Origin: Chiloscyllium plagiosum
Lineage: Eukaryota
Assembly: GCF_004010195.1 (NCBI RefSeq)
Contig: NC_057751.1
Coordinates: forward strand, 2,944,379-3,008,378
Reading direction: 5' to 3'
DNA: 64,000 bases
Position 1 is the stretch's first letter; each line of letters starts with the position of its first letter. The translations under genes were made by a program, and so were the position numbers. The notes under the pieces were generated by a model. That model was not told where the DNA came from, searched no databases, and saw only the letters and a list, made by a program, of their open reading frames with translations. Of the stretch, positions 184 through 63,800 are shown one piece after another.

Positions 184-314
184 GAGGTAAAAACAATGAC
201 TGCAGATGCTGGAAACCAGATTCTGGATTAGAGTGGTGCTGGAAGAGCACAGCAGTTCAGGCAACATCCGAGGAGCAGCAAAATCAATATTTCGGGCAAA
301 GGCCCTTTGTCAGG
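184..314 (-). mobile_element. Short Penelope-like terminal fragment (family A), degenerate hammerhead
   Basis: Same sequence family as 2824-2954; flanked by AATGCTGTC (175-183/315-323). Confidence 0.75.
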
Positions 315-1733
315 AATGCTGTCTGCCTTTCAGACACCTGTAACAACTGCTTTATCCACATTGTTGCACAGAATCCTATTCTATCTCTCACCCAGTCAGA
401 CAGTACTATCCTCTCTCATCCATGACAATTTAAAGCCTCATATCACTAGCCGACAGAGAGTGAGGATCCTACTGAGTGGAGACCACTCTTTCTGAGGAAG
501 CTCAAATGCTTGAGGCTTCACAGTTGTATGACTCAACAGATCATTGTCGGTGTTATTGGTGTGAACCAGAAACTGTACTGTTTGTCCTTTTTGGCAAAAT
601 ATGCATGTCTGTCAACAGTGTTCTCCAGAAAGGTTTTGTGTGATGTGAGTCAGATTGTGGGAAGATTCTGAAGGTCCTCCGGGGTTGGCAATTCTGTGTT
701 GGCAACAGTATGGTCAAACCGTTTGTGCTCTTCCCCTCAGGTGCACACCTGGAAGCGGAGTGTCACACAGGACTGGAAGTACACAAGGTCTTGTGTCAGA
801 CTGGGTCAATGTGGCCCCACCTGAGCCAGAGATTGCACATTGAAGTCTCACTCCAGGATTCGATGGCCACAGACACTGTGTTCACAACCTGGCCAAGCAG
901 AATGAGTATTAGTGTGTAAATCCTTCCAACCTGCCTGAGGCAGCAGCTGTGTCAGTGTGTGTGTCGGTGTATGTCTGTGTGCGTGCAGAGGGCAGCGTCC
1001 TGGTCAGCTTAAAGCAGAGGGTGACTGCAGCCCAACAGCCTCTCCATGGTTAAAACCTCCACACGCAGGTTACTGCCCTGGGCTGTACTGAATGCAGATT
1101 GCCCCCTACATTTGGAGGAGCTATCAGAAGGTAGAAGGCTGGGAGCCATGACACAGGTGATGGTCCACATTGACTGAGGACCACGTGCAAACATTTTGTT
1201 TGGCTGCTCTCCATCCACACGTAGGGGAGCTGTATTCTGTCGGAGAGTGCACAGGAGCAAGCCAACAAGATGGAGGCTTCTCCTTCTGGGGTCTGCCATC
1301 TTCCTTTTCAGGGGTTCACAAGCTGCAAGGCTGATTCAACTGTTCACCTGAGGAGCATCATTGTTCCAACAGCCGAACCAAGTGTCATCAAACACAACGG
1401 AGCTAGGAATAATCAGGGGCCAGCTATTTCATTGGAATGCTGAGCCAGCTGACATTGGTTTCGGCCTCAATGCAGGAATTTTACACCGGGATTGCGGCAT
1501 GTCTGGAGGGGCAGAGGGTGAGGGGTTCAAATCAAATCAAGTTCACTGCGAAACAAGGAAGAGATTGAAAGTGATGGTCACCAATAAGATGGGCCAAACA
1601 ACCTGGCACACAGCCACTGTGGAGATTCAGTCAGGCACGGACAAAATAAAATGTTCCCATATTGAGGAAGTCATCCTTGTTCTTATACTAAGTACTTTAT
1701 TCACTCTGTATGCCATTGTGCAACTACTCAATG

Positions 1734-1955
1734 AGGAGAAAGTGAGGACTGCAGATGCTGGCGATCAGAGCTGAAAATGTGTTGCTGGAAAAGCGCAGCA
1801 GGTCAGGCATCGTCCAGGGAACAGGAGAATCGACGTTTCGGGCATAAGCCCTTCTTCAGGAATTCCTGAAGAAGGGCTTATGCCCGAAACGTCAATTCTC
1901 CTGTTCCCTGGATGCTGCCTGACCTGCTGCACTTTTCCAGCAACACATTTTCAGC
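1734..1955. mobile_element. Palindromic Penelope-like end insertion (family A) with 15-bp TSD
   Basis: Inverted arms 1769-1862/1863-1956; TSD TGCAACTACTCAATG at 1719-1733 and 1956-1970. Confidence 0.85.
1866..1893 (+). ncRNA. Minimal hammerhead ribozyme motif
   Basis: CTGAAGA-A-GGGC-TTAT-GCCC-GAAA-CGTC; mirror copy on the - strand at 1832-1859. Confidence 0.7.
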
Positions 1956-2259
1956 TGCAACTACTCAATGCCTGTTCTCTGTCAACTCTATTTATAGGAG
2001 GAAGCAGGCATCAGGTTGAGTCTATTGAAAGTCTTCTCTCAGAAACGAGACCACTGCCTTTTTAGCATCCATCTTCACTGGGGAATTCCTCTGATACCTG
2101 AACTGACAGTTTGTTCCAAAAGATTTATCACTTTGAGTCAAGAAATTCTTCTTTATTACCTGCTTTGAAATCTCATTGACACAGTTTTCCCCCACCAATG
2201 CAAAATCTGCTACAATGTTCAAAGTTGTGTTTTTTTAAACTATTTGCCTAATTGGGTCA

Positions 2260-2515
2260 GAAATCACACGACATCAGGTTAGAGTCCAAAAGGTTTATTT
2301 GAAATCACAAGCTTTCAGAGCGCTGCCCTTTCATCAGGTGCTGTACAGAAGCAAACAGACACAGAATTTATCAGCAGAGAAATCAAAGGATCATACAAAT
2401 AGTGTGAGTGGAGTGTCCAAAGGATGAATAACAAGTCTCTGCAAAATGATCAGATGGTGTGACTGAGTTAACAGCTGGATAGCCAGTGAAGGGATGACCT
2501 GTAATCTGATTACAG
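2260..2515 (-). mobile_element. Penelope-like terminal fragment (family B)
   Basis: aaatcacac..caggtt..gtccaa..ggtttatttg..gctttc..tcatcaggtg family, as at 20925 and 29345. Confidence 0.7.
2306..2340 (-). ncRNA. Minimal hammerhead ribozyme motif (family B)
   Basis: Reverse complement: cac-CTGATGA-A-AGGGC-AGC-GCTCT-GAAA-GCTT-gtg; cac/gtg closes stem I. Confidence 0.7.
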
Positions 2516-2823
2516 ACATTGCTCGACCCCATGTTACAGCTACAACAAAAGGCGTCCAAAAAGCAACATCAACAGAGGAAACAAGACAGAAACTGGAACT
2601 GTTGGAGTCCGGACTTTTCACTCTCACAAGTGCAAAGACACTGGACAGCACAACAGCCTTTAGCATCCTCCCCATTTCAGGTACCTCTCCATCCATGCTT
2701 TTTGTTTGGCAAGTTCCTTACCTGTATCTGCGTGTCCCTCGTCATGTTTTATTCTTCCTTCAGGTCGTAACACTCCCCTTTCACTTGTCAGAACCTCGGG
2801 ACTGCCTCCCTGTTTTGATCTGG

Positions 2824-2954
2824 GTAAAAACAATGACTGCAGGTGCTGGAAACCAGAGTCTAGATTAGAGTGGTGCTGGAAAAGCACAGCAGGTCAGGCA
2901 GCATCTGAGGAGCAGGAAAATCGACGTTTCGGGCAAAAGCCCTTCATCAGGAAT
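2824..2954 (-). mobile_element. Short Penelope-like end insertion (family A) with 16-bp TSD
   Basis: TSD CCCTGTTTTGATCTGG at 2808-2823 and 2970-2985. Confidence 0.85.
2923..2950 (-). ncRNA. Minimal hammerhead ribozyme motif (intact core)
   Basis: Reverse complement: CTGATGA-A-GGGC-TTTT-GCCC-GAAA-CGTC. Confidence 0.72.
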
Positions 2955-3551
2955 AGAGGCTGTTTTGATCCCTGTTTTGATCTGGTTAACTAAAACAAAT
3001 TGAAGTGAACATTTTTTAACCATTGTTGGAATTGATCCTGGAGGGGTTTAATAAAAGAAGGGAGAGTGACCTCTGCTCACGGTCATAATGTGATCGGTGG
3101 AAGTGGTTGTGACATTTCACTTGTGAATCACTAACACTGATAGACACGGCAATGTTAAGGTGGATGAAGTTTGTAATGTTACCCCTACTCCCCACGGCCT
3201 GATTTTCAACAAGATCACTCTGTCTGGAGAATACCCCCAAGAAACCAAGCTGTAGAGAGCAGGAAAAGTATGAGCTGCTTCACCCATCACTATATCGCAG
3301 TGTGAGATCAGTACACACATGCAGTCACACTGCCAGTTTTGCCCAATTATTCATATAGATTGTCCCTTTTTGTTTATTTATAGGCAAATCATTGACAAAG
3401 TGCACATAGGAGAACCACCAGTCTTTTAGAGGTGGCAGGAAACCCAGCCTTCTGCCTGAGAGAGTTTTTGTGGGAGTCAATTGCTGAACTGGGTAACACT
3501 GTGGCATGTGATATGTGCCAGACAGTGGGACTGGGCACTGGGCTGAAGAAT

Positions 3552-3635
3552 TATCCTGAAGAAGGGCTTATGCCCAAAACGTTGATTCTCCTGTTCCTTT
3601 GATGCTGCCTGACCTGCTGCGCTTTTCCAGCAGCC
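3552..3635 (+). mobile_element. Short Penelope-like end fragment (family A), hammerhead GAAA mutated to AAAA
   Basis: atc-CTGAAGAAGGGCTTATGCCC-AAAA-CGTT-gat followed by the family tail. Confidence 0.75.
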
Positions 3636-4819
3636 AACACTTTCCCTGACATCTCCAACGTTGTCATCGATGAAGACTGGAAAGAAAAGACATCGTTTAT
3701 AAAAGAAGTCTGGTCGTGCTCAGGTGGTTCCTTCATTCCTGTACAATCCCACAGTGTTGATAATCCTGAATAGACTTTTGCAGCTCATTGGCACGGTTGG
3801 CCATGTGGTCCAAGCCAGTGGAACCAACTGTAATGCCAGCTTCAGTGCAATACACCCATGGGAATGCCAGAGCAGGGTTACCAACTCAGTTTGCACACAT
3901 TCTTGGAGTTTTCTTCTCGTGAAAGTCCCTCCACTTTCATTTTGGACAACTGGTTCCCCCTTCCAAAAGCTGTTCTTGGACAATAGTATCTGTCTTTGTG
4001 ATGGCACCGGTCAGTTGTTAAATCCCCAATCGTGTTGGTGTCACACTTGGTCCCACAATGTGCTACTGCACCTCAGATTGGTGGCATCACTGACACTGTC
4101 TCTTTCCATCTCCATGTCTTCACTCAACTTCACTCGGTTTCAGCCCGGCTGCTCCTGAATCCCTTGTGGCTTTGTGACCTCTGAACCTGACTATTCCTCC
4201 ACATCCCTGGCTGGTCTCCCACATTGTAAACTCGTGGCTAAACTGGAGATCGTCCGAAACTCTGCAGCACATGTCTGACTTGGCAACAAGTCTCATTGCT
4301 CCATAGCCCCACCACATGAACGCTGACCCACACTCGCCCTTGAACAACTCTCATCCTGATGTTAAATCAAAGCAAAGCCCTGGAGATGACAGAATAAAAG
4401 CAGAAAGTGCTGGAGAAATGTATTAAAAATATTAAGATCATAAAACAAGGAGCAGAATTAAGCCATTTGGCCCATCAAGTCTGCTCCACTATGCTTATGG
4501 CCGATATGTTTCTTCAACCTGTTCTCCTGCCGTTTCCCATCTGGATGGGTGTATGAATAGGAAGGGTTGCGAGGGATATGGGCCAAGTGCTGGCAAGTGG
4601 GATGAGAGGGATGTAGAATATTTGGTTAGCATGGACGAATTGGACCGATGGGTCTGCTTATGTGCTGTACAACTCTATGACTCGAAACCCTTGACCCCTC
4701 ATGAATCAGTCTGTGGAGGGACAAACAGAGGTAACATTTCGAAGCCAGTGTAAATCTCCTTCTGAACTCACCAATATCTGCAGAGCTGTTCCAGCACTTC
4801 TGACACTTTTCAAATCTCC

Positions 4820-5396
4820 CCATGATCTTGCCTTCCCTCTCTATCCCACCCCCACCACCAGAAATATATTTCCCTCCGCTATTCCCCCTGTGACTCCCTT
4901 GTCAGGTCCACGTCCCCCCACCAGCCCACCCTCCTGTGCCAGCACCTTCCCCTGCAGGAACTGCAAAACCTCCACCCACACCTCCCCTCTCACCTCCATC
5001 CAAGGCCCCAAAGGAGCCTTCCACATCTTTCAGAAATTTACCTGCACATCCACACATGTCATTTACTGTATCTGTTGCACCTGATGTGGTCTCCTCTACA
5101 TTGGGAAGAGAGGACGCCTCCTAGCAGATTGTTTCAGAGAACATCTCTGGGACACCCGCACCAATTATCCCCACCGTCCCATGGCTGAACATTTCAACTC
5201 TCCCTCCCACTCTGCCGAGGACATGCAAGTCCTGGGCCTCCTCCATCACCACTCCCTAATCACCCAATGCCTGGAGGAAGAACGCCTCATATTCCACCTT
5301 GCGACCCTCCAACCCCAGGGCATCAATGTTGACTTCACCAGTTTCCTCATCTCCCCTCCCCCCACCTTATCCCAGTCCCAAGCCTCCAACTCGGCA
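4820..5396 (+). mobile_element. Penelope-like retroelement, GIY-YIG endonuclease region
   Basis: One frame: TFPCRNCKT...FTCTSTHVIYCICCT*CGLLYIGKRGRLLADCFREHL...MAEHFNSPSHS...EEERLIFHLATLQPQGINVDF; single in-frame TGA at 5082-5084; runs into the N gap. Confidence 0.9.
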
Positions 5397-5476
5397 NNNN
5401 NNNNNNNNNNNNNNNNNNNNNNNNNNNNNNNNNNNNNNNNNNNNNNNNNNNNNNNNNNNNNNNNNNNNNNNNNNNN
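5397..5476. other. Assembly gap (80 N)
   Basis: Run of n. Confidence 1.
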
Positions 5477-6315
5477 CCAGATCCGCTGAGTTTCGCCAGC
5501 AATTATTATTATTCCACAGTGAGTATCTCCCAGTCAGCTGAGAAATACTCACCAGAAGGTGAAATAGGAAGAAGGACATTGAGTAAAAGCACAGTCCCAC
5601 TGGATAAGAACTTTCTTTTCCCCACTGCTGACCCGGGCCTGGCAGGAAGCAGAGTCTCAAACAGAAATTGCTCAGTGCTGCAGAATTCCCCGTCATCTCC
5701 TGACACTGCGACAAGCAGAACTGAGCAGCGAAATTACAGGGTCACTCAACAAAATCATCAACATTTTGGGGAGAGAGAAAATGAGGACTGCAGACGCTGG
5801 AGATCAGAGTTGAGAGTGTAGTGCTGGAAAAGCACAGCAGGTCAGGCAGCATCTGAGGAGCAGGAAAATCGACATTTCGGGCAGGAGCCCTTCATCAGGA
5901 AGGGCTCCTGCCCGAAATGTTGATTTTCCTGCTCCTCAGATGCTGCCTGACCTGCTGTGCTTTTCCAGCACTACACTCTCAACTCTGATCTCCAGCGTCT
6001 GCAGTCCTCATTTTCTCTCTCCCCAAAATGTTGACGATTTTGTTGAGTGACCCTGTAATTTCGCTGCTCAGTTCTGCTTGTCGCAGTGTCAGGAGATGAC
6101 GGGGAATTCTGCAGCACTGAGCAATTTCTGTTTGAGACTCTGCTTCCTGCCAGGCCCGGGTCAGCAGTGGGGAAAAGAAAGTTCTTATCCAGTGGGACTG
6201 TGCTTTTACTCAATGTCCTTCTTCCTATTTCACCTTCTGGTGAGTATTTCTCAGCTGACTGGGAGATACTCACTGTGGAATAATAATAATTGCTGGCGAA
6301 ACTCAGCGGATCTGG
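5477..6315. repeat. Long inverted repeat: 417-bp arms, 5-nt spacer
   Basis: 5477-5893 is the reverse complement of 5899-6315 with 2 mismatches; centred on a Penelope-like end. Confidence 0.95.
5871..5898 (-). ncRNA. Minimal hammerhead ribozyme motif at the palindrome centre
   Basis: Reverse complement: CTGATGA-A-GGGC-TCCT-GCCC-GAAA-TGTC. Confidence 0.65.
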
Positions 6316-6485
6316 CAGCATTGCTGGAGACAGAAAGCAGAGTTAACATTTCAGGTTCAGTGACCATGAAGAAGGGTCACTCAACCCAGAATGTTAATTC
6401 TGCTTTCTCTCTGCACGGATGCTGCCAGACCTGCTGAGTTTCGCCTGTAATTTCTGTTCTTGTTTCAGATTTCCAGCAACCCCAG
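6285..6485. mobile_element. Older palindromic Penelope-like end pair
   Basis: aaactcagcggatctggcagca..gcagagttaacattt / aatgttaattctgc..tgctgccagacctgctgagttt. Confidence 0.7.
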
Positions 6486-6504
6486 TTCTTGGGGTGGGGT
6501 GGGG

Positions 6505-6770: not shown

Positions 6771-6774
6771 TGGT

Positions 6775-8497: not shown

Positions 8498-8498
<1 letters not shown>

Positions 8499-8525
<27 letters not shown>
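8499..8525. repeat. (TG)n microsatellite
   Basis: Direct observation. Confidence 0.95.
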
Positions 8526-8527
<2 letters not shown>

Positions 8528-8697
8528 GGAGAGAAAAGAGCTGACATTTCAAGTCTAACTGACCCTTTGTCAAAGGGTCAGTTAGTCTTAAAACATCAGC
8601 TCTCTTCTCTCCTTACAGATGCTGCCAGACCTGCTGAGATTTTCCAGCACTTTGTCTTTTGGTTTCAGATTCCAGCATCTGCAGTAATTTGCTTTTA
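8523..8697. mobile_element. Palindromic Penelope-like end insertion
   Basis: Inverted arms centred at 8570 (gaccctttg-t-caaagggtc), then the gatgctgccagacctgctgag tail. Confidence 0.75.
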
Positions 8698-10309
8698 TAC
8701 TGTGTGTCCCCTGACCAACACCTGGGTCTGAGACTTGTTGCAGTGCTCCACTTGAGCTCAGCACAAGCTGGGAGGATAGCATCTTGTTTTGGGCTTCAAG
8801 ATCCTGTCGCCATCTGGACTCAAGATTGGGTTCAATTGTTTTAAGGCCTGAACACCTTGTAGAGTGCAGCCAACCTGTTTTGCATCTGCTTACTGTTCCC
8901 ACTAGCAGCTAGTCTCCTTCCCAGGTTCACATTACTCATCCACTATATTTGCCTTCTCTCCTTCTGAGCTCCACATGCACCTGTGCTCTCTCACCTTTAA
9001 CAGCCAGTCCCTGTCTTTAGCATATTTACATCAAACTTTGTTTTAACCACCCAAAATGACATTTCTGAAAGACAAGAAGTTTGCAGCATGATCACAACCT
9101 CCCCAAAGTCAGAGTGGTCAGTTGAGACAGCGAGCGAGTGAGAAAGCTGCATGCCAATATTTAAAACAAAGTTGCATGACTATTATTTGTGACTTATGCC
9201 ATAAAACATGCCAGGGATGTGAATGCTCCCTGTGTTATATTTGTGATAGTGACGGTGGTTTTATACTGATTGAGTATAAAATGAGCAGCTAGCACTTTCC
9301 TATCCCATAGATGCTGGTGAGGAAAACATTGGCTGTTTTCCAAACTGTTGCTAGGTTTATAGAAGGGTCCCTGGACCTGAAACATTAACTCTGCTTTCTC
9401 TGCAGTGTTTCTGCCAGACCTGTTGAGTTTCTCCTGCACTTCCTGTTCTTGTTTCTGCTTCGAACAGCCTTGCAGATGGGAAGGCTTTGTCACCTTGCTA
9501 GTTTGGTCAAGCTTATCGCGATGTTCGGTCTCCTTGGGGCGAGTGAGTTTTGAACAGTCTAAAATGTTAATCAAGCCCCTACTCTTCCTGCTGTGGTTTC
9601 AGCTTCATTCGACATGGTTTCATGCCCAGCTTTCACTGTGTCATGTACTTTTTATTCTTATTGGATGGGTTCTGATTATTCCAGATCAGGAATAGGTTGT
9701 CTTGTATGTTAGCTTCCAGAGTTCCTCACCTTTTCAAAATGCCTTTGATCCACCTGCTCACTGACATGCAGCCCCTGTTGGAAAAGCAGCAGCCCTGAGT
9801 TTACCCTGAGTTGGCTCCCACACCCAGCTATGTGACTGTCCTGCATTTGGTGCCTGTAATCCCTGGTACTGTGTATTTCTCCATTAGTTTCCAGTTTTGT
9901 CAGCACGCTGTGCTGCTGCTCCTGATCCCTCACTGGGGAGCAGCTTCACTGAAGTAAGCTGACCTGTTTCATGGCCCAGTCACCAAGAACCTTGTGCATT
10001 GGCTTTTGCAAATTCCTAGCAGAGAGAAATTTGTTTGTGGGTTTCCAGTCAGTTGCTGACCACTATCAGTGCAGAGCCTCAAACATCACACCACACAGAC
10101 TGTGTACACTTGATGTTGGTGGGGGCCCCTTTTGGGGTGCAGTACAGAGTTGTGGCTGCCCTGTCTTTGGACCAGGAATGCTCTCTGCAGCCAAACATTG
10201 TACTCTTCAGTCTGTTCCTTCACTTTATATGGGCTGCACTGCACGCAAAACAAAACTTCTCACTCTACTGAGGTACATGTGACAAAAATAGATAAATGAA
10301 TCAAATTAA

Positions 10310-52600: not shown

Positions 52601-55600
52601 AGCACAAGGGGTCTCTGTCTTTATTACGTTTGGAGGGGGTTCAGAGCATTGGAAGAGGGGCAGTTGGGGGAAGCATATTGTTCAAAATGGGTGTCAGCGA
52701 CCCTCCTTTATGCTGAGCCCAGGTCCCTGCGTTCTCTATTTTCCCCAGCCACACGGAACCAATCTCCAGTGTCAAGCCTGTACAGAATGCTATCCTCTCC
52801 ATCGCAGCCCCTCGCTGCTATTCTAAACTCCAGCATGGAGATGGGCCCAGCCATTCCTGGATTCCAAGCTTCACTCAGTTCTTGCTGTAACGCTAGGCCG
52901 ATCCTTTCTCGGAGCAAAACAGAAATAGCTGGAAAAGCTGAGCAGGTCTGTCACCATTTTGTGGGCACAAATCCAAGTGTCTTGGGTTGAATGATCCTTC
53001 AGAACTGTTGGTAATGAGGAAAACATTTTTTTTTTTTCTCTGCAGAAGATGGGGAGGGGTAAACACTAGGTGAAGCTGGAGAGAGGGTAAAACAATTGGA
53101 CAGCCCAAGAAAAGGTTCCAGATCAGTCTGGGACAATGGGGAGTCTGTAGGAGCAGCCCATGTGATAACAAGGCCTGGTGTGTGAGATGGGGAAAAGGAC
53201 TGGGAAAGATCATCAAACGTGAAAATATCAAGTCCACAAGGCTGCAAAGTTTCCAAGCGGAAGATGAGGTGCTGTTCTTCAAGCTAGTGCTGAGTTTGGG
53301 TGGAGCACTGCAGCAAGCGTGAGACTGTGTGTGCGATGTTGGCCAGGGAGCAGGAAGCTCAGGGTCTGGATTACAGACAGGACGTAGGTGCTCTGTGAAG
53401 TAGTCACGCAGTCTCACCCTGAATCCTTGCAGTTAGGAAGACCAATTGCACACTGTGTGTTCACTGCTGTGGAGTGGAATGTGACTGAGTGAGTGCACAG
53501 TGTTCTTGTAAAATGGTAAGGAGCTGAAGGAAGGCTCTTGTGATTGTAACTCTAACCAAAACCTGTTGGTGGTGAATCATGACCCGTTGAGTATAATATG
53601 CCAAGGCAGTATAGGCCAGAAAGTGAACATTTTGAAGTTGGGTTGACAAGTCAGGAATATCGGTACTAACAGAGTCATCACTGAGTTAACGAAACTTCTC
53701 AGCTTGCACTGGTTCACTTTTTTTTTCAGAGTCCTTCCTTAGATAACCCTCTGGGTGTCATGAAACTTAGCCTGAGACCTGTAACATCACGTGAGCGTGG
53801 TCTTATTGAAAGGAATGTTTATTGATTTCTGGGAGCAAAATAGTGTTTTTGATCTTTTCGGGAGGATGTGGAGTCCGTTTCGGGTTAGCAGTTTGCCATT
53901 GTGGTTGGGAAGCCAGCTGAAATGTTGATCTGGCTGAGTATGGCTGGGCACAGGGAGGCATTTGGCGCAGAACATCAGGCGTGCAGCTTGCAACAGCACA
54001 GGCTCTGAGCTGAGCCAGAAACAGGTGACCTAATTCAGTGTCTGGTAACAGAATCCTGTCCAGGCCAAGGAGAGGGAGACAAAGCCCCAACACTTGCTAT
54101 GGTGTGGCCGCTGGGACTATCTCAACCCTTTTTTTTTTTGTTTTTTTTTGTTTTGCAGAGGACAGTCTGCACATGGGGGGGCAAATGCCAGGTTAGAATG
54201 TGGGTACAAGTGCCAGCCTCAGTGTTTGGAATAGAGGTTTCATGAGGAACATTGTAGAAGAATGTAACCACTGGTTGAAGTTAATAATAGACCATTGAGA
54301 TGACATTTTTTTTAAAAAAAAAAGTCAGTGTGAAGGAATTCAATTCAAGTTTTCAGTGAAGAATGGAATTGGAATTATTAAGGTCTTGATTTCTTTGGTT
54401 GATTTTGTGTTGGAATTGTACAGTTTTCATTCCAGACTTGTCTTGAGGTCTTGTGTTCTGCATTTCAATTTTCCTGGACTGTGGCGTTGTGCACTGTGGT
54501 TTTGTTCATTTTCCATACACTTGGCTGACTTGATGAATTAGGGCTTCCTGAAGAAGGGCTCATGCCCAAAATGTTGTATTATTATTATTATTTTTTCTTT
54601 CCCCCCTGCTCCTTGGATGCTGCCTGACCTGCGTTTTTCAGCTCTGACTTGATGAATTTTCAGACACAGCAGGAATGATCCGTAACCTGTACTGGTTTGG
54701 GTTGGACATGGAAGCTGATGGAATAACCAAGCTGTCAATGAGGCAGATACCCCTCCGTGCTGGATACTGTTCATGTGGACTTGACCAGGTTTTGTCAGGC
54801 TTAACTGCCTAGTGCTGGGGAATCAGTTCGTGTCCCTCATGCTTGCTGAGTGACAATGACAGACTCTTTTTTATTTTTTCTGAGCACGCAACAAAAATGC
54901 TCTTACAAACCCCTTCACTGCCTCATTTTTCCCCATCCCTCCCACTAACATCACCCCCACCCCCTCCGCTCACCATCTGCTAGCCTGGAACATCTCAGGT
55001 CTCACACGGTGGTACAGTGGTTAGCACTGCTGCCTCGTAGCGCCAGAGACCCGGGTTCAATTCCCGCCTCAGGCGACTGACTGACTGTGTGGAGTTTGCA
55101 CGTTCTCCCCGGGTCTGCGTGGGTTTCCTCCGGGTGCTCCTCCCACAGTCCAAAGATGTGCAGGTCAGGTGAATTGGCCATGCTAAATTGTCCGTAGTGT
55201 TAGGTAAGGGGTAAATGTAGGGGTATGGGTGGGTTACGCTTCGGCGGGTCGGTGTGGACTTGTTGGGCTGAAGGGCCTGTTTCCATACTGTAAGTAATCT
55301 AAAATCTAAACTGTATACTCTGCCTCCCACTCTGCCTCCCACTCTGCCTCCCACACCACAGGGCACTAACTGTGAACTCCTCTTTGCAAAAAGATATGTT
55401 CTCCTCCTTCCCCATTCACATAGCTAACCTGACCGAGTTGGGCTGGCTTGCTATGAACATGGGTGAGCAAGTGTCCAAGAACAGTGTGTGTCACTCTGTG
55501 ATCGATTCCTGATATCCCATCAGCCACTGAGCTTGACCCACTTGCACAGTGGCCAGCATCTGTTAGCTTCCAAGGTAACAATGGTGACCAGAAGAAAATG

Positions 55601-56530
55601 ACACTTCTTTTTTTTAAATCCGTGCCACTTTTAGTTTTGTGGGAGGGAATCCATTCAATGTGTGAATTAAAGACGTCATGTGAATTGTTTAGCAGATTTT
55701 GGCACTTTTCAGAGAGCAGCTGGGGGTGGTGTCTGTTTGGTCTCTTTATCACATGTTCCCCTGGTTGAACGGTGATGGCCACGATCACATGGCTGTTTGT
55801 GCGCTCTTACTGTGGGAAGTGGCACTTTGCAGTTCTGCTGAGTCATTTGAAATCATCAAATGCTTGGGTTGTGCACACTGCGGTCTGAATGTAGGCCTTG
55901 CAGTATTTTGAGCTTGGTCTGGAATCTCCAGTCCTGAGAGGACAGCTTTGAATCTTTTGACCACCAGATTGAGGGTGGTGACATTTCTGGGGGACACCTT
56001 GCTTAAATGTGCAGAAAACACTTCACCTGGGCAGCATGGTGACTCTGTGGTTAGCACTGCTGCCTCAAAACACCAGGGACCTGGGTTCGAGTCCACCCTC
56101 TGAGTAGAGTTTGCACATTCTCCCCCTGTCTGTGTGGGTTACCTCCCACATTGTAAAGATGTGTAGGTTAGGTGGATTAGTCATGGGAATTGCAGGGTTG
56201 GGAGAGGTAGTGCTGAGTTGGTGTAGGATCCTCTTTGGGAGGGTCAGTGTGGCCTGGATGGGCTGAATGGCCCGCTTTCACACTGTCAGGATTCTCCAAT
56301 CTCCTGTGTCAACATTGCTGAGTTGGGAACTGTCTGGCTGATTGGTGGATGCACAATACCCTGAAGAAGGATGGTGGGAAGGAGATGGTTCCACTTGGTA
56401 TAGTGTTCATTTATCTGGAACCAACAGACATTGCTGCCAAGCTGGACTGAACCTTTTTTAATCTTGTTTCTAGGGGGATTGCTCTGGTGATTATAAGAAG
56501 ATTCTGCTGGAGCTTAGCGGTGGAGAATAA
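19660..56530 (+). CDS. anxa4: Annexin A4, complete spliced CDS (12 coding exons, 320 aa): join(19660..19668,27499..27586,29618..29712,32198..32311,34477..34567,36294..36373,38018..38074,41975..42068,49956..50051,50172..50230,51537..51659,56474..56530)
   Basis: Manual splicing gives an open 963-nt frame: [320 protein letters not shown]. Four annexin repeats with GxGTD motifs and acidic cap residues. Short N-terminus, [39 protein letters not shown] and [10 protein letters not shown] are ANXA4-type. Exon sizes match the canonical vertebrate annexin structure. Confidence 0.95.
20890..21087. mobile_element. Palindromic Penelope-like end pair (family B)
   Basis: caccagattatagtccaacagg / cctgttggactataacctggtg inverted arms. 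Confidence 0.78.
21150..22085 (+). mobile_element. Degenerate CR1 LINE RT/3' region
   Basis: gtggataaatgtgaggtggttcacttgggtagcaaaaa ([11 protein letters not shown]), [12 protein letters not shown]. Confidence 0.8.
23718..24369. mobile_element. Solo LTR (Gypsy-like, 4-bp TSD)
   Basis: TGTAA...TTATA ends flanked by AACA/AACA; shares ggccagacc head and ggagcag end with 39240-39867. Confidence 0.6.
25770..26092 (-). mobile_element. tRNA-derived SINE (HE1/V-SINE-like)
   Basis: Reverse complement of the SINE family. Confidence 0.85.
27499..27586 (+). CDS. anxa4: anxa4 exon 3 ([30 protein letters not shown])
   Basis: ttttttcttaacag acceptor, G|gtttgt donor, 88 nt. Confidence 0.95.
27739..27960 (+). 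mobile_element. Short LTR-like repeat
   Basis: TG...CA ends; ccaatcagggagccctggct core also in reverse at about 18520-18535. Confidence 0.45.
29345..29546. mobile_element. Palindromic Penelope-like end pair (family B)
   Basis: aaaaatcac..caccaggttatagtccaacagg / ctgttggactataacctggtg..gtgattttt. Confidence 0.82.
29395..29426 (-). ncRNA. Minimal hammerhead ribozyme motif (family B), antisense to anxa4
   Basis: Reverse complement: CTGATGA-A-GGAGC-AGT-GCTCT-GAAA-GCTA-gtg. Confidence 0.65.
29618..29712 (+). CDS. anxa4: anxa4 exon 4 ([32 protein letters not shown])
   Basis: tgtgtag acceptor, AGG|gtatgg donor, 95 nt. Confidence 0.96.
32198..32311 (+). CDS. anxa4: anxa4 exon 5 ([38 protein letters not shown])
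   Basis: ctgcag acceptor, AAG|gtatgt donor, 114 nt. Confidence 0.96.
34477..34567 (+). CDS. anxa4: anxa4 exon 6 ([31 protein letters not shown])
   Basis: ACTAAC branch point 34451-34456, ccctag acceptor, G|gtaaag donor, 91 nt. Confidence 0.96.
34835..35050 (+). mobile_element. CR1 LINE 3' end
   Basis: [15 protein letters not shown] plus CR1 3' UTR. Confidence 0.78.
36294..36373 (+). CDS. anxa4: anxa4 exon 7 ([27 protein letters not shown])
   Basis: Long T tract plus gcag acceptor, ACG|gtaagg donor, 80 nt. Confidence 0.96.
36790..37054 (-). mobile_element. Non-LTR retrotransposon 3' end (L2/RTEX-like)
   Basis: ggccagcattgataacccatccctatttgccccttgagaaggtggtggtgagctgcctccttgaa family end. 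Confidence 0.65.
38018..38074 (+). CDS. anxa4: anxa4 exon 8 ([19 protein letters not shown])
   Basis: ctcacag acceptor, CAG|gtaact donor, 57 nt. Confidence 0.94.
39240..39867. mobile_element. Solo LTR inserted into a CR1 fragment
   Basis: TGTTA...TGACA termini, ATTG/ATTT imperfect TSD; interrupts the CR1 sequence ggggcagtga|tttccacagattc. Confidence 0.65.
39767..40532. repeat. Tandem duplication (381 bp + 385 bp)
   Basis: 39767-40147 and 40148-40532 are near identical and span the LTR/CR1 junction. Confidence 0.95.
39868..40680 (-). mobile_element. CR1 LINE ORF2 C-terminal region
   Basis: [63 protein letters not shown]. Confidence 0.9.
41593..41618. repeat. (GT)n microsatellite
   Basis: Direct observation. 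Confidence 0.95.
41975..42068 (+). CDS. anxa4: anxa4 exon 9 ([32 protein letters not shown])
   Basis: ccag acceptor, G|gtaagc donor, 94 nt; repeat-3 WGTDE motif. Confidence 0.96.
42330..45720 (+). mobile_element. Long degenerate CR1 LINE (ORF1, endonuclease, RT and 3' remnants)
   Basis: IGAND-like ORF1 remnant, [43 protein letters not shown] motifs in order. Confidence 0.75.
46200..46446 (-). mobile_element. tRNA-derived SINE, older copy
   Basis: Reverse complement of the SINE family. Confidence 0.78.
46525..46833 (-). mobile_element. tRNA-derived SINE (HE1/V-SINE-like), young full-length copy
   Basis: Intact A/B boxes, CpGs retained, (AATCT)n tail. Confidence 0.92.
49956..50051 (+). CDS. 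anxa4: anxa4 exon 10 ([33 protein letters not shown])
   Basis: aacag acceptor, G|gtgagt donor, 96 nt. Confidence 0.96.
50172..50230 (+). CDS. anxa4: anxa4 exon 11 ([20 protein letters not shown])
   Basis: CT-rich tract plus cccag acceptor, AAG|gtaaat donor, 59 nt. Confidence 0.96.
51537..51659 (+). CDS. anxa4: anxa4 exon 12 ([41 protein letters not shown])
   Basis: ctaac branch point, tcttag acceptor, AAG|gtaagt donor, 123 nt. Confidence 0.96.
51716..51960 (+). mobile_element. tRNA-derived SINE, 5'-rearranged
   Basis: gggtttcctccgggtgctccgttttcctcccacagtccaaagatgtgcagg body. Confidence 0.8.
52010..52680 (-). mobile_element. Penelope-like GIY-YIG region, degenerate
   Basis: MTILGLLHC...[26 protein letters not shown] remnants. 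Confidence 0.78.
52915..53420 (-). mobile_element. Penelope-like 3' region
   Basis: [10 protein letters not shown]..., [15 protein letters not shown] remnants plus terminal repeat. Confidence 0.72.
54540..54643 (+). mobile_element. Short Penelope-like end insertion (family A) with 15-bp TSD
   Basis: TSD CTGACTTGATGAATT at 54525-54539 and 54644-54658; hammerhead GAAA mutated to AAAA. Confidence 0.8.
55004..55310 (+). mobile_element. tRNA-derived SINE (HE1/V-SINE-like), young full-length copy
   Basis: A box tggtacagtgg, B box gggttcaattccc, CR1-like tail. Confidence 0.92.
55317..55354. repeat. 12-bp tandem repeat (ACTCTGCCTCCC)x3
   Basis: Direct observation. Confidence 0.9.
56029..56300 (+). 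mobile_element. tRNA-derived SINE, older copy
   Basis: gtggttagcactgctgcctca..gggttcgagtcc. Confidence 0.82.
56474..56530 (+). CDS. anxa4: anxa4 exon 13 coding part ([18 protein letters not shown])
   Basis: tttctag acceptor; TAA at 56528-56530. Confidence 0.95.
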   Translation, partial: GDCSGDYKKILLELSGGE

Positions 56531-57370: not shown

Positions 57371-59334
57371 CATTTTTATTTAAGAAACACTATAGGTTGA
57401 GAATACATTGCTGGTGAAATGCTGTCTCCCCCAACTGCAGTGAGTGAGGCCGGCTGGCTTTGATTGGTGGTTCTGTCGGTGTGTGTTCCTTGTGGCCATT
57501 CCATTCGGCATCAAGAACCTGGTGGGAAGGAAGCAACTCTCTGGGATGGTGTCATCTTGCTTCAGCACTGAGGTTGGAGATTCTTTTGAAGTCTGAATAC
57601 TGAGCCCAAGATCAGTGAAGAAGAGAATGATGAAAGTAAGTGATGGTACGATTCAATGATCAAAGTGTAGAGTACATCTGAAACAAGAGAATGCTGTGAG
57701 CAGATGGTTTACTGACAAATCACTGGAATTGTCTTAAATGAGTAGCTCTGAGTGGATAATTCATTAAGGATTCATTCCACCTAAAAACCTTGAAGCTATG
57801 TTTGTGAGCTTGTGTTCCACTTTGAAGATGGCAACATGCTGTTTTGTCTTTGCAATCGACCTGGTGTGATTTCCGAGCGCTCTCCAATTGAAATGCTACT
57901 TTCCATTAGACACCGTGCCAAGGCACAGACTGTGTGTGAACCAACTTTGCATGAAAACATTTCTCTGTGATGGAAAACCAAGGCTTGATGTTGTGTTGAT
58001 TTTTAGTGTGGTGTTGGGTCAGAATGTGGGCCATTGTTGGCAGCTGATGACACACAGTTTAAAAGGGCCAGGTGGGTGGGTGGGTGGCAGTGGGATCAGG
58101 AGATACAGCTCCCCTTTCTTTAGCATATGTGAGAAACCAAGCTCACTGATTATTAATTAAAGTCAGTCAAATTCTGAAGCTGTCTTTAATGTGTTCTTGC
58201 AAGCCCAGGTGACCACAAAGTAAGCGCACTTCTGAATAATATTATTGCACACTTATACAGTTTGCTATGAGCCTCTCTGTACCTCCCCCTTTTACCTCAT
58301 TTGTGACAGTTGTATTGCTCCTTGCAGCTGTTAATCAAATCACCTTAACATATCTGCCTGTGGCTAGCATGCAACCCCCCACCCCACCCCCGTCTTATTT
58401 GGTTATCTTGTTCATACAACCTCCCTATGTGCGTGACAATTGCAATGGTCATGTCAATACATCTGTTTCTACCAGTCAACCACCTCCCTTTTTCGGTTAG
58501 TTATTTCTTGGTATACATCCTCATGATTCAGCCTTGTGATTTCAGCAGAAATAATAACATTTGCAAGTGCCTCTCACAGCATATGATGGGCTGAATGGTT
58601 TACTTCCATACTTCAGGGATTTTATATCCATCCTGAAGGTGAATTGTAGCCACACCATCTCTTCTTCCCCTCTTTCCTCCTCCCCCCCCCCCCCCCCCCC
58701 TCTCGGGCAAGCTGTATCTCTGCCTCAGCCATAAGGGCGATTTGCTCCCATTCTGGTTCAGTCACGTGGTTTGGGTGACCAATCATGTGCGCCCCTGGTG
58801 CTGTCTCCATGGTTTGGGTGCCTTCCCCCTCCCCTTGTCCATTGCAGTCAGTGACAAATTCTGGAGTGTCACTGTGTGGGAATGTTGGAACTGAGCTGTG
58901 ATGCTCTCAGGCCGTTTCAAAAACATTTTACCCGTCCTCTTTTAGGGGTGGGCATGGCATCCTGCCCTGTCTAAGCACTCTAAGCAAGAAGCTGCTTTCA
59001 GAGGCTGTGGTTAGGTGAGGCCCTGTTCTCTGACCAGCCAAGCTGGCCTGATGCTGGGTGTGTTGGCATGAGCAAGGAATGCTATATTGGTGGTGTTTAG
59101 CTGCTGTCAACACAGTGATCTAAATTATCCCCAAGTCCTGTCAGGCTGAGGCATGGAGTCTGTGCCAACCTGACTGTCCAAGTCAAAACACACTGACTGA
59201 AAAGGGTTCAAGTCTTTCCAATTCTATTTTCTGTTGGATTTATGGATAACTAGGAGGAATTTGACAGACTGAGCAGATGGACCGGATCAGAGCCAAATGG
59301 AATCCAACACCGTTAGTTGTGAGGTTAAGAGAGG

Positions 59335-59745
59335 TTTAAAAATTAACATACAACACCGGGTTACAGCCCAACAGGTTTGTTTGGAAATACAAGCTTTCCT
59401 CATATTGGCACATTTGGGGTGCAGATATGGTCCCCATGGCTGTTCTGTGTGTCTGGATGAAGAGCTGGTTGTCAAAGGTCAAGTCGTTGTGGTCAAGGAT
59501 AAAGGATGAGTTGTAGGATGGTGCCTGGAGCTTTGGTGGTCAGTGATATTGAGTGCTGAGACTGTTGCAGTGATGCTGTCATGCTGAGGGATGTTTGTGC
59601 ACAGTGCCAAAATGTCCACTGTGATGAGCAATGTTCCTAGCTCAACTGATCTCAAATTTGTACTTGCACATGAATGGTTGGACTGTAACCTGGTGGTGTG
59701 ATGTTTTTAACTTTGTCCATCCTAGTCCAACGCTGGCACCTCCAC
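59335..59745 (-). mobile_element. Penelope-like element: RT fragment between inverted family-B ends
   Basis: Minus strand LITVDI..ALCTNIPQHD, ILDHNDLTFDNQLFIQTHRTAMGTISAP resemble Penelope RT motifs. Confidence 0.75.
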
Positions 59746-59759
59746 AGTGAGGCACTGAG

Positions 59760-60500: not shown

Positions 60501-62271
60501 TGGCACACCTGCTCCTGGCACCTCTTCCACAACTTGAAACCAGTCGCTCATCTCATTTAGCCTCAAAGCCACCGTCCTGCTTATTCTCAATAACCCTTCA
60601 ATCCATTTCTGATTTAAAGGTGGCTCTGTCTGTCTGCTCACAATGAATGCAGTCCCTAATAGCTATGTGAAGGAATGCCACAGTTCCCTCAGCCTTCAAG
60701 AAAATATTTCTTGTCAGCTCTGTACAAAACCGGCCACCCTTGTTTAGCAGACGCCTGAGCTCCTGTGTGAGAGGGCCTTAGGTATGGAAACACCGTTTCT
60801 GCATCTACAACAATCTTTTAGACCATCAATTCAATCTCCCCTCTGTGTTTGTAAACTCCAGTGAGTGTTCAATCTCTTTGGAAGTTCCCACTGCCACAGA
60901 AGCAATTCAGTACCTCCCACCACCAGCTGGTGGTAGTGGGTCTCTGCCTGTTGAGATGGGTCCCTCAGCACTACAACAGCAGAGAGCAGAGGACTTGTCC
61001 CTGGCGTTCTGGGCCAATCTTTATCCCTGAACCAATCTGCCTTGGTAAAGGAGGGTGGTTACTTCTCTGTTGGGGTTTGTGAGAGCAGGTGGTCTGTGAA
61101 TTAGCCACAAGGTATGCCATGGTGACCATTTCCCCACACCCTCTGGCACTAGGATAACATCCAGGAAGTGAGCTGAATGTCACTGCCAGTGGGGAATGTA
61201 ATGGGAAAGCTGATTGGTTTTGGACCTACCTGTTTGCACTGCTGTAGGCATAATTCATCCATCTCCACCCGGCCGAAACCTTTGGACTGTGCTAAAACAT
61301 GCCATCCGTGAGGAAACAACTGTTTGCTTGGAAGTGTGAGGAAGGAGCAGGCCGAATGTTTGCTTGCCGAGGTTAAGTACATTTCAATGCGTCCCTCCCA
61401 CCTTCCTGTTGCGTGGCAATGAATGAGAAGGAGGTGGACTCGATGCTGAAGTCCTTCAGCTCCTGCTGATTTCTGCTTCCCGATCATTCCTATTCTGGGA
61501 GGTCAAGACTCATTCACTGGTGTCACTACAACCTACTCGGGGGGGGGGGGGGGGAGAATGGACATGCCATTTCTGCATCTCCAACAGTGACCCCCTTTCA
61601 ACAATCTTTTACACCAGCTCAGAGGTAGGGATGATACCACCATGGCTGCAAAGCTATCCCTGTTCTGAGTCAATTTCCTATTGTGTGCAGACTGTGGCAG
61701 GAAAATCCCATCAAATTACAAAGGCTTTAGTTCCATCGTCTCACATGCCCTGACATTTATACAAATGGAGTCTTTGCAGTCTCCCACTGTTACTAACCGT
61801 GCCTTTCAGTGCAGCAGGTCAAAACACGGATTCATTTCTTGAACCCTGAGGTGATTCCCCTTAAACCCAACCTCTTCACGACACTTTCAGTCAGCTGTGC
61901 TGTGGCAAATGTCCCTTGTCACCTTTTGCCTGTTGAACGCTGTCAAGGTGCAAGAAAGAGGGGAAAAACTACTTCAAACAATCAAAGTTGGGCAAAAGTA
62001 CTCTTCTTACTCCAGCTCTGTCAATCAGCATCCAAGCCCAACTGAGCATGTATTTCATTCACAAGGTTTTGCTGGTTGCTCGTGGAATGAGAAGGAATTA
62101 AAGCTTACATCTATCAGAGAATGATGGTCTCAGCACCAGATGATTTCTTTAGGCTCCCCATTCTTTGCTTGCATCTGTAGTGGGTGCAGACTGAGGGAAA
62201 GCTTCCTCAGGTATGACTGTAACTGTGTGACTGGAACAGACAGCTTGTCTGTTTAAGAGGCAAGTCACAGC

Positions 62272-62455
62272 AAAATACAGCAGATGCTTAAAAACCTGAA
62301 ACAAAAACAAAGTGCTGGGCAAACCCAGCAGGTCTGGCAGTGTCTGTGGAGAGAGAAACGAGAACAGAGAGAGAGTCACAGTAGACTGGAAACATTCACT
62401 ATTTCTCTCTCCACAGATGCTATGAGACCTGCTGAGTTTCTCCAGCACTCTGTGT
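62272..62455. mobile_element. Older palindromic Penelope-like end pair
   Basis: gtgctggg..cagcaggtct..tctgtggagagagaaa / tttctctctccacaga..agacctgctg..ccagcac. Confidence 0.7.
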
Positions 62456-62829
62456 TTTATGCCTGTTGTAGTGATTGGCTCAGTCCAGCATGCTCTAATC
62501 CAATAGTTACAGCACTGACTGATGCTTGATATTTACCTGAGTGTACAAATTGGACTCTATTTTAGTCCTTCACTCAGTTTGTGCTGTTGAAGGGTTATAT
62601 TTGAAGTTTGTGTGTTGCTGTTCCTGATGGAAGAGCCAGTTAGTGCATGATCTTGCATCTTCCAAGTGTTGGGGTGAGTTGGGGGTTCTTTCCAATCCAT
62701 CCCTCCAACACAAAGTCAGGCAACAGCAAAGAGAGACTTTGGGTGTCAGAGGTGAACCCGTGTCATAGGGTACACAAAGTGTCTGTACAAGATCCTGGTC
62801 AGTGTTGGGCCCCTTATCTCAGGAAGGAT

Positions 62830-63800
62830 GTGCTGGGAATTAAATAGCCAGGGGTACCAGACTATTCGGAAGGATAGACAGGAATGCAAGGAAGGTGGTG
62901 TAACTCTGATATTCGAGAACAACATCAGGGCAGTGCTGAGAGATGATATAGGCTCTTTGGAGCATACAGTCAAATCCATTTGGGTGGGAATTAGAAATTC
63001 TGAGAAGAAAAAGTCACTGTTAGGGGTAGTCTATAGGCCACCAAATAATAACATCACATCAGGGCGGGCAATAAACAAAGAAATTACTAATGACTGTAAA
63101 AATAGTAAGGCAATTATCATGGAGGATTTTAATCTACATGTCAATTGGTCAAACCAGCTCAGCCAGGGCAGCTTTGAGGAGGAATTCATTGAGTGTATCT
63201 GTGATAGTTTTCTTGAACAGTATGTAATGGAACCGACGAGGGAGCAACCTATCCTAGATCTGGTCCTGTGTAATAAGACAGGAATAATTAAGAAGGGCCT
63301 GTGCCCGAAACGTCGAATCTCCTGTTCCCTGGATGCTGCCTGACCTGCTGTGCTGTTCCAGCAATAAAGTTTCAACAGGAATAATTAATGACCTTATAGT
63401 TAGGGATCCTCTTGGAAGGAGCGATCACAATATGGTTGAATTTAGAATACAGATGAGGAGTGTAAAGATAAAATCCAATAGCAGGGTCCTGTGCTTAAAC
63501 AAGGGAGACGACAAGAGAATGAGAGAGGACTTGGCTAAAGAAGACTGGAAACAAAGAGTTTATGGTGGGGCAACTGACGAGCAGTGGAGGACTTTCAAAG
63601 CAATTTTTCAACGTGCTCATGAAAATTATATTCCAGTGAAAAGGAAGATCTGTAAGAAAAGGGGTACTCTGCCATGGGTGTCTAAGAAAATAAGGGACAC
63701 TATCAAATTGAAAGAGAAGGCGTACAAAGTGGCCAGAACAGCAGGAAACTAGAAGATTGGGAAAACTTTAAAGGTCAACAGAAAGCCACAAAAGAACTGT
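62830..63800 (+). mobile_element. CR1 LINE ORF2 apurinic-like endonuclease region
   Basis: GYQTIRKDR..GGV..LLGVVYRPPN..IIMEDFNL..PTREQPILDLVL | DPLGRSDHNMVEF. Confidence 0.92.
63292..63374 (+). mobile_element. Penelope-like end fragment nested in CR1 with 14-bp TSD
   Basis: TSD ACAGGAATAATTAA at 63278-63291 and 63375-63388. Confidence 0.88.

What the first reader, a model, noticed from the sequence alone, without database searches (positions are those of the whole stretch)
284..63316. Dispersed minimal hammerhead ribozymes carried by at least two Penelope-like end families
Seen: the motif CTGANGA-A-[4-5 bp hairpin]-GAAA-NNTH recurs across the window. Intact cores are at 1832-1859(-), 1866-1893(+), 2309-2337(-), 2923-2950(-), 5871-5898(-) and 29398-29426(-); decayed or truncated ones lie near 290, 3556, 6367, 8570, 9360, 20980, 54548 and 63292. 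Family A has stem II GGGC-N4-GCCC with variable loops (TTAT, TTTT, TCCT, TCAT) and GAAACGTC. Family B has GGAGC-N3-GCTCC-type stems, GAAAGCTA and a cac/gtg stem I. The unrelated stems around the same core, with loop-only variation, argue for a conserved RNA structure. Established: Penelope-like retroelements carry minimal type I hammerheads whose stem III is reduced to a short palindrome (here ACGT, AGCT) and which are thought to cleave as dimers. Inference: this genome is densely seeded with such self-cleaving motifs, invisible to ORF-based annotation.
Basis: partly seen in the sequence, partly recalled or inferred. Interest (0 to 1): 0.78.

Follow-up and report, generated by a model that had tools for sequence, protein, structure and literature searches.

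The report
Shark Penelope hammerhead stubs, mostly idle
These small hammerhead-ribozyme motifs are real and occur over 100,000 times in this shark-type genome as the short end-pieces of Penelope-like jumping genes, a known kind of element; most are likely idle relics, but their left edges pile up about 30 bases behind a TATA-like box, which would mean they are copies of the first ~130 bases of the element's RNA.

Summary
The motif is real: 6 matches in the window against 0 in 200 controls, and 107,627 exact cores of four families genome-wide against 0 for reversed patterns. Each family's motif lies downstream of a GIY-YIG endonuclease frame. It is therefore the known minimal hammerhead of Penelope-like pLTRs (PMC4209133), about ten times more numerous than published vertebrate counts. 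Families covary in stems I-III. The 'decayed' 8570 site is a separate family with a compensatory U3-A8 core. 'Self-cleaving' is not shown: only 38 of 143 sampled family-A copies are intact, 69 of 132 sit in head-to-head hairpins, and neither copy ends nor RNA read ends pile up at the cut site. Instead, short copies begin 4-8 nt before CUGA, 29-33 nt after a TATA or TATA-like box in four families, and end at two sites about 35 nt apart. They are likely cDNAs running from the internal priming sites to the RNA's 5' end. The scan has reported these elements many times on other DNA, this promoter reading included (e1-8159471). Verdict: new members of a known kind, with one testable mechanistic lead.

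The parts
186..317 (-). Family A solo pLTR stub with tail. Core 286-313 is decayed (C3 with A8; helix III ATAT). 5' edge at -4. 9-nt TSD.
1735..1956 (.). Family A head-to-head pair, one insertion with a 15-nt TSD. Cores at 1832-1859(-) and 1866-1893(+). Both arms reach -4 and overlap by AT; only the left arm has the tail. Predicted to fold into a ~94-bp hairpin.
2261..2375 (-). Family B copy. Core 2309-2337, cut triplet CUU, stem I CAC/GTG. Keeps upstream pLTR with a mutated TATA (GATAAA, near 2367-2372).
2823..2960 (-). Family A solo stub with tail. Core 2923-2950 intact, stem I 2 bp plus U-U. 5' edge at -10. 17-nt TSD.
3554..3644 (+). Family A stub. Core 3556-3583 with G12 mutated to A. 5' edge at -2.
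4695..5330 (+). Broken Penelope-like ORF piece: Cys-rich linker and GIY-YIG endonuclease of the family A type.
5477..5774 (.). Likely assembly mirror of 6018-6315, beside the 80-N gap; not a second real copy.
   Evidence: unitig 5988-6354 unbroken, at the depth of neighbouring unique unitigs; arm mismatch 5757/6035, where X5 reads the left-arm letter
5775..6017 (.). Family A head-to-head pair. Core 5871-5898(-) has the helix III palindrome broken; the + arm lacks CUGA.
6279..6486 (.). Family C inverted pair; both arms lack the CUGA half of the core.
8523..8697 (.). Family F inverted pair. Core 8543-8573(-) carries the family's U3-A8 covariant core; helix III has CpG decay. 10-nt TSD in a TG microsatellite.
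9361..9470 (+). Family C stub truncated inside the core.
20894..21088 (.). Family B inverted pair. Core 20980-21008(-) is decayed (U3 with G8; helix III AGGT). Edge near -9.
27499..56527 (+). Host annexin A4 gene, context only. Coding exons found at 27499, 29614, 32195, 34477, 36293, 41972, 51537 and 56474.
29345..29545 (.). Family B inverted pair in an ANXA4 intron. The core 29398-29426 is antisense to the gene; the sense arm lacks CUGA.
51848..52379 (-). Second decayed Penelope-like endonuclease piece, in an ANXA4 intron.
54546..54640 (+). Family A stub, sense in the last ANXA4 intron. G12 mutated, palindrome and 3' stem I lost. 15-nt TSD.
59334..59398 (-).
62269..62460 (.).
63290..63378 (+). 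Family A (CTGT loop) stub starting at +3, with no CUG. Inserted into a LINE endonuclease frame with a 14-nt TSD.

Best explanation
The motifs are minimal hammerhead cores in the pseudo-LTR ends of several Neptune-type Penelope-like retrotransposon families, and the dispersed copies are likely dead, separately inserted cDNA stubs that would run from the element's internal priming sites back to the 5' end of its RNA. Shown: in long copies the motif lies downstream of RT and GIY-YIG frames and is followed by a tail and then the ORF start. Shown: short copies end at two 3' positions about 35 nt apart, carry 9-17-nt TSDs, and begin 4-8 nt before CUGA, 29-33 nt after a TATA or TATA-like box. Inferred: the upstream pLTR is a Pol II promoter that starts the RNA just before the hammerhead. 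Inferred: the protein nicks the target and primes at one or both internal sites, as for the anole element. In the 5' pLTR it would run off the RNA end after about 95-130 nt and give a solo stub; if both strands prime, it would give a head-to-head pair with the tail on one arm. Inferred: catalysis is kept under selection in the active lineages (as dimer or protein-assisted cleavage of element RNA), while the templates that were copied were mostly uncut and the inserted copies decay neutrally.
For: PLE link: family A; B; C; F. Selection at family level: 0 of 22 core, stem II and helix III/C17 positions differ among four A subfamily majorities, against 23 of 62 flank positions (Fisher p=5e-4). 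Stems differ between families but pair. U3-A8 in 94 of the first 100 listed F cores, G8 in none. Copy decay: 38 of 143 intact; CpG 17%. 5' edges: A 36 of 132 at -6..-3 against 7 at -20..-7 (p=2e-17); F 11 of 30 at -4; B mode -8; C 24 of 30 at -9..0. TATAAA lies 30-32 nt (B), about 29 nt (C) and 31-33 nt (F) before the edge; TTTAT/CTTAT 31-33 nt (A). RNA reads from many loci leave the reference at the -4 base (221 reads). 3' ends 66 short and 66 tailed, as for the two RT start sites in PMC11167929.
Against: No transcription start was observed: one search found no place where many molecules begin. Family A has only a weak TATA-like word. The family C edge is blurred (6 of 24 short copies run to -7..-9). 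D. virilis Penelope has a TATA-less internal promoter, with an intron before the hammerhead (PMC2377424, PMC4209133). Full-length A copies extend 15-175 nt upstream of -4, so longer templates or strand jumps also exist. Copy-level core mismatch (22 of 848) was somewhat lower than flank mismatch (28 of 591); selection on the alignment and an A-rich core may explain this. Neptune assignment rests on motifs, not on a tree.
Confidence: 0.68

Rival explanations
1. Same elements, but the 5' pile-up is not the RNA start. Reverse transcriptase stalls at or just beyond the hammerhead fold, or joins the target through ATT microhomology at the endonuclease's preferred cut.
For: The anole enzyme prefers 5'-ATT-3' (PMC11167929), and some family A TSDs end in ATT shared with the element's ATTC. 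The edge coincides with the start of stem I in families A, C and F. Junctions are visibly driven by microhomology.
Against: Families B, C and F have no ATT at the edge. In B the edge is at -8, beyond the 3-bp stem I, and follows the TATA box rather than the ribozyme. The left edge is sharp, with a tail only to the right.
Confidence: 0.2
2. One reading: many dispersed copies self-cleave, as dimers, in host transcripts.
For: At least 107,627 exact cores. The region is transcribed on both strands as a passenger (1,701 reads laid). Same-strand copies lie 586 nt apart at 2337(-) and 2950(-), although their palindromes differ (AGCU, ACGU). Such motifs cleave weakly as dimers in vitro (PMC4209133).
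Against: Of 132 A copies, 4 begin at +27..+29 (p=0.08). Among inverted junctions lacking the core in one arm (498 genome-wide; first 100 counted by eye), 11 start at +28, 12 at +30 and 43 at +20..22. No read ends at the cut site (one 3'-type library, about 2% read). About half the copies fold back (-182 kcal/mol for 1735-1956). The hammerhead dimer was never the lowest-energy fold in 7 of 7 cases. No intact sense copy lies within the ANXA4 coding span.
Confidence: 0.08
3. The short units are a non-autonomous element of their own (retrozyme or hairpin mini-element) that spreads as a unit.
For: Uniform size, very high copy number, TSDs. Animal retrozymes derive from pLTRs (bioRxiv 10.64898/2026.07.22.740005).
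Against: No hammerhead-bearing tandem array in the window. Junctions differ from pair to pair. Stubs lack the upstream promoter region and match the long elements subfamily by subfamily.
Confidence: 0.04

Closest known systems
[quoted passage not shown]
   Same: Core; extra base after A9; G10.1-C11.1 pair; palindromic 15.2-16.2; short helix I; mostly solo copies from truncated PLEs; pairs on opposite strands. The U3-A8 core variant was reported in Schistosoma mansoni.
   Different: At least 107,627 exact cores here against about 4,000 (coelacanth) and 9,000 (Xenopus), by other descriptors. Stem II is 4-5 bp. Stem I is only 2 bp plus U-U in the largest subfamilies. No cartilaginous fish is named in the parts read; supplements were not seen.
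Poseidon element PAc of Anolis carolinensis, Frangieh et al. 2024 (PMC11167929; parts 1-2 of 4 read)
   Same: Hammerhead in the pLTR; two internal RT start sites giving the optional tail; both strands primed; uncut RNA as the main template; no RNA-seq ends at the cut site.
   Different: Neptune-type linker here. The ORF start lies after the tail rather than inside the ribozyme. The parts read do not relate 5' ends of genomic copies to a promoter.
EN+ PLE insertion units with inverted 5'-truncated pLTR, 30-40 bp tail and TSD (PMC8557442, PMC3846280; passages read)
   Same: Head-to-head arms, one-sided tail, TSD, trouble for short-read assembly. A TATA plus Inr-like pair was noted in an Adineta pLTR.
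   Different: Here the unit is usually only 95-250 bp, and its inner edge sits at a fixed distance from the TATA box in four families.
Animal non-LTR retrozymes (bioRxiv 10.64898/2026.07.22.740005; part 1 of 5 and passages read)
   Same: Non-coding, pLTR-derived, type I hammerhead; reported in one chondrichthyan.
   Different: Defined by same-strand tandem units; the copies here are solo or inverted.

Membership tests
min-HHR of metazoan PLEs | Core CUGANGA...GAAA-NN-UH (or the covariant U3-A8) | tested here: met
min-HHR of metazoan PLEs | Unpaired base after A9 and G10.1-C11.1 closing helix II | tested here: met
   offset 1 in all family hits; GGGC/GCCC, GGAGC/GCTCC, GGGTC/GACCC, GGGTC/GACTC
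min-HHR of metazoan PLEs | Palindromic helix III allowing a dimer | tested here: met
   ACGT (A, C, D, E, F) and AGCT (B)
min-HHR of metazoan PLEs | Short helix I of 4-5 bp | tested here: inconclusive
   4 bp in C, F and A-CTGT; 3 bp in B and E; 2 bp plus U-U in A-TTAT and A-TTTT
min-HHR of metazoan PLEs | Located in the pLTR, sense to the ORF | tested here: met
   downstream of EN and upstream of the ORF start
min-HHR of metazoan PLEs | Self-cleavage after H17 as dimer or with protein | not testable with these tools
   indirect traces looked for and not found
EN+ Penelope-like element | RT followed by a C-terminal GIY-YIG endonuclease; DKG motif | tested here: met
   RVT_1 E=0.006 and GIY-YIG E=0.001, both below Pfam cut-offs; KPADKGG and YIDD read in L070 and L071; homologs carry PF00078 and PF01541
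EN+ Penelope-like element | pLTR, inverted 5'-truncated copy, optional 30-40 bp tail | tested here: met
Neptune clade | CX2-5CxxC linker before GIY-YIG (shared with Nematis, PMC8557442) | tested here: met
   CHRRNCKTC in family A, CNRRRCNTC in F, CQRCNTC in C; not seen for B
Neptune clade | RT phylogeny grouping with Neptune references | not tested
   no reference set was on hand
Non-LTR retrozyme | Same-strand tandem units, each with a hammerhead | tested here: not met
   no such array in the window; sampled copies are solo or inverted
Non-LTR retrozyme | Abundant circular RNA | not testable with these tools
   only poly(A) reads and contigs were laid

The most novel reading that the evidence does not exclude
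In these elements the hammerhead is the first ~35 nt of a TATA-driven transcript. The commonest product of retrotransposition is a strong-stop-like cDNA (internal priming site to cap) that is integrated directly, singly or as two fused head-to-head. This would explain how one genome gathered hundreds of thousands of promoterless ribozyme stubs, why pLTRs must be rebuilt by partial tandems, and it would cast the ribozyme as a device that removes the cap end of the element's own RNA.
Probability: 0.5. Interest if true: 0.55.

Novelty: new member of a known kind. Interest (0 to 1): 0.33.

Why it matters
The motif class, its dimer model and its spread as solo copies are published, so the finding as written is ordinary. 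Two things are worth keeping. First, the scale: over 100,000 exact cores, roughly tenfold above published vertebrate counts, none seen by Rfam. Second, the fixed 5' edge at TATA+30 in four families, which gives a concrete, testable step for the poorly understood Penelope cycle and says the templates were mostly uncut. The role of PLE hammerheads is stated to be unclear in PMC8557442.

Tried and rejected
Rfam E-value scan: no hammerhead family; the miRNA hits are below gathering scores and fall on the inverted pairs. Pfam on the window's own EN pieces: no hit; only longer genomic copies gave weak RVT_1 and GIY-YIG hits. Long 'open frames' listed were mostly N gaps. One search used one reference shifted by 1 nt and was redone; the numbers quoted come. 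Cut-site trace in copy ends, a lead from earlier notes: not confirmed. In one search the +28 class (11 of 100 by eye, 5 without microhomology, 8 more ambiguous) is no larger than +30 (12), and stem I complementarity itself creates microhomology there. A 3' splice site as the edge: AG/G occurs near -17 in some A subfamilies, but few copies end there. No DPE match was seen by eye at +28..+32 from the proposed start. RNA runs: no RNA holder was listed; X22 laid 0 reads, so it gave no test; X21 is a single-cell poly(A) library with about 2% read, weak for start or cut sites. Nearest-neighbour energies ignore tertiary contacts, so says little about activity. Lunse et al. (PMC5785218) is not held; it is known here only through PMC6765202. 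Literature searches with no relevant hit: Penelope+shark+hammerhead+ribozyme (one review), hammerhead ribozyme+Chondrichthyes, Penelope-like+hammerhead+TATA box+truncated copies (0 papers), Penelope-like+strong-stop+reverse transcription (one unrelated paper). Supplements of all papers and Repbase/Dfam were not seen and may already hold shark examples.
Full report
Observation. All six cores named as intact are at the stated places. In 906,792 non-N bases (the window, 200 kb beside it, and 700 kb from arbitrary places on 40 contigs) a looser descriptor gives 79 hits, 49 with a palindromic helix III, against 1-7 and 0-3 in five shuffles. Positions below count from C3 of CUGA as 0; the predicted cut falls between +27 and +28 in family A. 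Only 2309(-) and 2923(-) are solo copies with core, palindrome and some stem I. The other four lack stem I or the palindrome, or sit in head-to-head pairs. Rfam has no model that catches them.

Scale. The genome has 3.56 Gb. Exact patterns give 87,506 family A, 18,482 family B, 335 family C and 1,304 family F cores, with reversed-pattern controls all 0. Extrapolating would give roughly 190,000 descriptor-grade motifs. The closest named homologs of the element protein and of the host gene are from sharks and rays. Cervera and De la Pena reported about 4,000 and 9,000 such motifs in coelacanth and Xenopus (PMC4209133).

What carries them. In long family A copies the motif lies about 200-320 nt after a GIY-YIG frame on the same strand (75 nt in one). 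The ORF shows DKG, YIDD, a CX4CxxC linker and GIY-YIG, which fits Neptune or Nematis by motif (PMC8557442). In 3 of 30 loci picked by the ORF's N-terminal part, the order is upstream pLTR, hammerhead, tail, ORF start. Families B, C and F follow their own endonuclease frames. Two more families (D, E) appeared in the sample with 2-3 copies each and were not linked to an ORF.

Structure is conserved between lineages, not among copies. Stem II reads GGGC/GCCC, GGAGC/GCTCC, GGGTC/GACCC or GGGTC/GACTC. Stem I reads TC/GA (ATTC/GAAT in one subfamily), CAC/GTG, AGTT/AACT or AGCT/AGCT. Helix III is ACGT or AGCT. Among four A subfamily majorities (n=26, 68, 10, 36; 14 copies unassigned) 0 of 22 core, stem II and helix III/C17 positions differ, against 3 of 5 N7/loop positions and 23 of 62 flank positions. 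The site near 8570 belongs to family F, whose core has U3 with A8: 94 of the first 100 listed matches, 6 with C3-A8 and none with G8 (counted by eye). The same covariation was reported in Schistosoma (PMC4209133). Among copies found by a downstream anchor, only 38 of 143 keep core, stem II and palindrome. CpG sites mismatch at 17%, non-CpG core at 2.6% (biased low by the selection) and flank at 4.7%.

Anatomy of the stubs. Of 143 family A ends, 11 were dropped for touching gaps or locus ends. Of the remaining 132, 66 end at +74..98 and 66 at +111..128. This is the optional tail that matches two internal RT start sites in the anole element (PMC11167929). 69 have an inverted partner. TSDs of 9-17 nt flank six window insertions (13 tried; 3 gave only 7-8 nt matches, 4 none). 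The pair 1735-1956 is one insertion with a 15-nt TSD and the tail on one arm, as described for PLEs (PMC8557442, PMC3846280). The 5' ends are not random: 20 lie at or before -21, 7 at -20..-7, 36 at -6..-3 (18 at -4), 47 at -2..+10, 4 at +27..29 and 18 elsewhere. RNA reads from many loci leave the long reference at exactly -4 (221 reads).

A likely cause. In long copies the -4 base is an A in YYANWYY for A (TCATTCC, TTATTCC) and C (TCAGTTC); the Inr and TATA consensus and their spacing are recalled knowledge. TATAAA starts at -40 or -38 in B, near -33 in C and at -35 or -37 in F, and TTTAT/CTTAT at -37 or -35 in A. Among exact-core copies, B has 17 of 37 at -9..0 (mode -8), 17 long and 3 between. 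C has 24 of 30 at -9..0, a blurred edge. F has 23 of 30 at -6..+1 (11 at -4). The edge stays 29-33 nt from the box while its distance to the ribozyme changes from 4 to 8 nt. I infer that it is the transcription start and that the stubs are run-off cDNAs. This was noted, before the look-up showed that an earlier agent had reached the same reading on this genome. It is not shown: no start site was seen in reads, and D. virilis Penelope uses an internal TATA-less promoter (PMC2377424). I found no paper stating it; supplements were not seen.

Do they cut? Not shown. Copy ends at +27..29 are 4 of the 22 between +11 and +50 (p=0.08). Genome-wide, 498 junctions join a full arm to an arm starting beyond about +20. 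Of the first 100, counted by eye, 43 start at +20..22, 11 at +28, 8 are ambiguous, 12 start at +30 and 26 elsewhere, mostly at microhomologies. In run X21, 1,701 reads covered the motif equally on both strands, 96% ran on into unrelated flank, and no place had many starts or ends. The 1735-1956 transcript is predicted to fold into one long hairpin. The window holds an annexin A4 gene on + from at least 27499 to 56527. Within that span the 29398 core is antisense and the one sense copy (54548) is broken. The gene's 5' extent is unknown, so copies left of 27499 may or may not be intronic. Published minimal PLE hammerheads are inactive as monomers and weak as dimers (PMC4209133), or need the element's protein (PMC11167929).

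Artefact. The 417-bp inverted repeat begins at the N gap. A unitig runs unbroken over 5988-6354 in three of four runs laid (none in X6), at the depth of neighbouring unique unitigs in X1 and X3, and one arm difference matches the letter read in another individual. 5477-5774 is therefore likely a mirror made by the assembler; the inner pair is real in kind.

Verdict. The claim of widespread self-cleavage is unsupported. New members of a known kind; interest 0.33. The promoter-anchored stub mechanism is the part worth testing (probability 0.5, interest 0.55 if true). Papers seen: PMC4209133 and PMC11167929 parts 1-2 of 4; bioRxiv 10.64898/2026.07.22.740005 part 1 of 5 and passages; PMC8557442, PMC3846280, PMC2377424 and PMC6765202 passages; Lunse et al. 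not read.

Noticed in passing
window 27499-56527 (+): Annexin A4 gene; eight coding exon matches at 89-100% identity to a shark protein. Exons for about residues 160-177 and 210-261 were not found at the thresholds used.
   Followed up: partly
window 5397-6315: An 80-N gap followed by a near-perfect mirror of 5899-6315, likely an assembly artefact caused by the head-to-head pair.
   Followed up: yes
window 62756-63752 (+): LINE-type endonuclease/RT piece (PF14529) interrupted by the 63290 stub.
   Followed up: partly
window 6502-6649, 17477-17788, 25775-26090, 46280-46839, 51757-51956, 55005-55307, 56024-56302, 63817-63915: A dispersed ~300-bp repeat family; it resembles the shark SINE HE1/V-SINE (label recalled, not tested).
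   Followed up: no
window 39767-40532: Two 385-bp tandem units, 93% alike, with a 30-bp perfect inverted repeat between 39967 and 40379.
   Followed up: no
window 21353-22045 and 44994-45675: A 700-bp direct repeat, 89% alike; probably a LINE 3' piece.
   Followed up: no
L121:9729-9762(-), L084:877-910(-), L093:9735(+): Family E hammerhead with a 7-bp stem II and TATAAA 50 nt before CUGA; its one short-looking copy begins near -21, again about 30 nt after the box.
   Followed up: partly
L167, hammerhead to ORF start: One reading frame stays open from inside the hammerhead through the tail into the ORF's first ATG; not so in L156 and L165.
   Followed up: no
L165:1228-1652 joined to 1013-1034 (run X20 contigs): Several contigs join ORF 5' sequence to the -4 edge (table 5c); they could be stubs inserted into older elements, or template jumps.
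   Followed up: no
L037:1528(-): Chimeric inverted junction: a family A arm fused head-to-head to a family B core, which suggests that two families' cDNAs can meet at one target.
   Followed up: no
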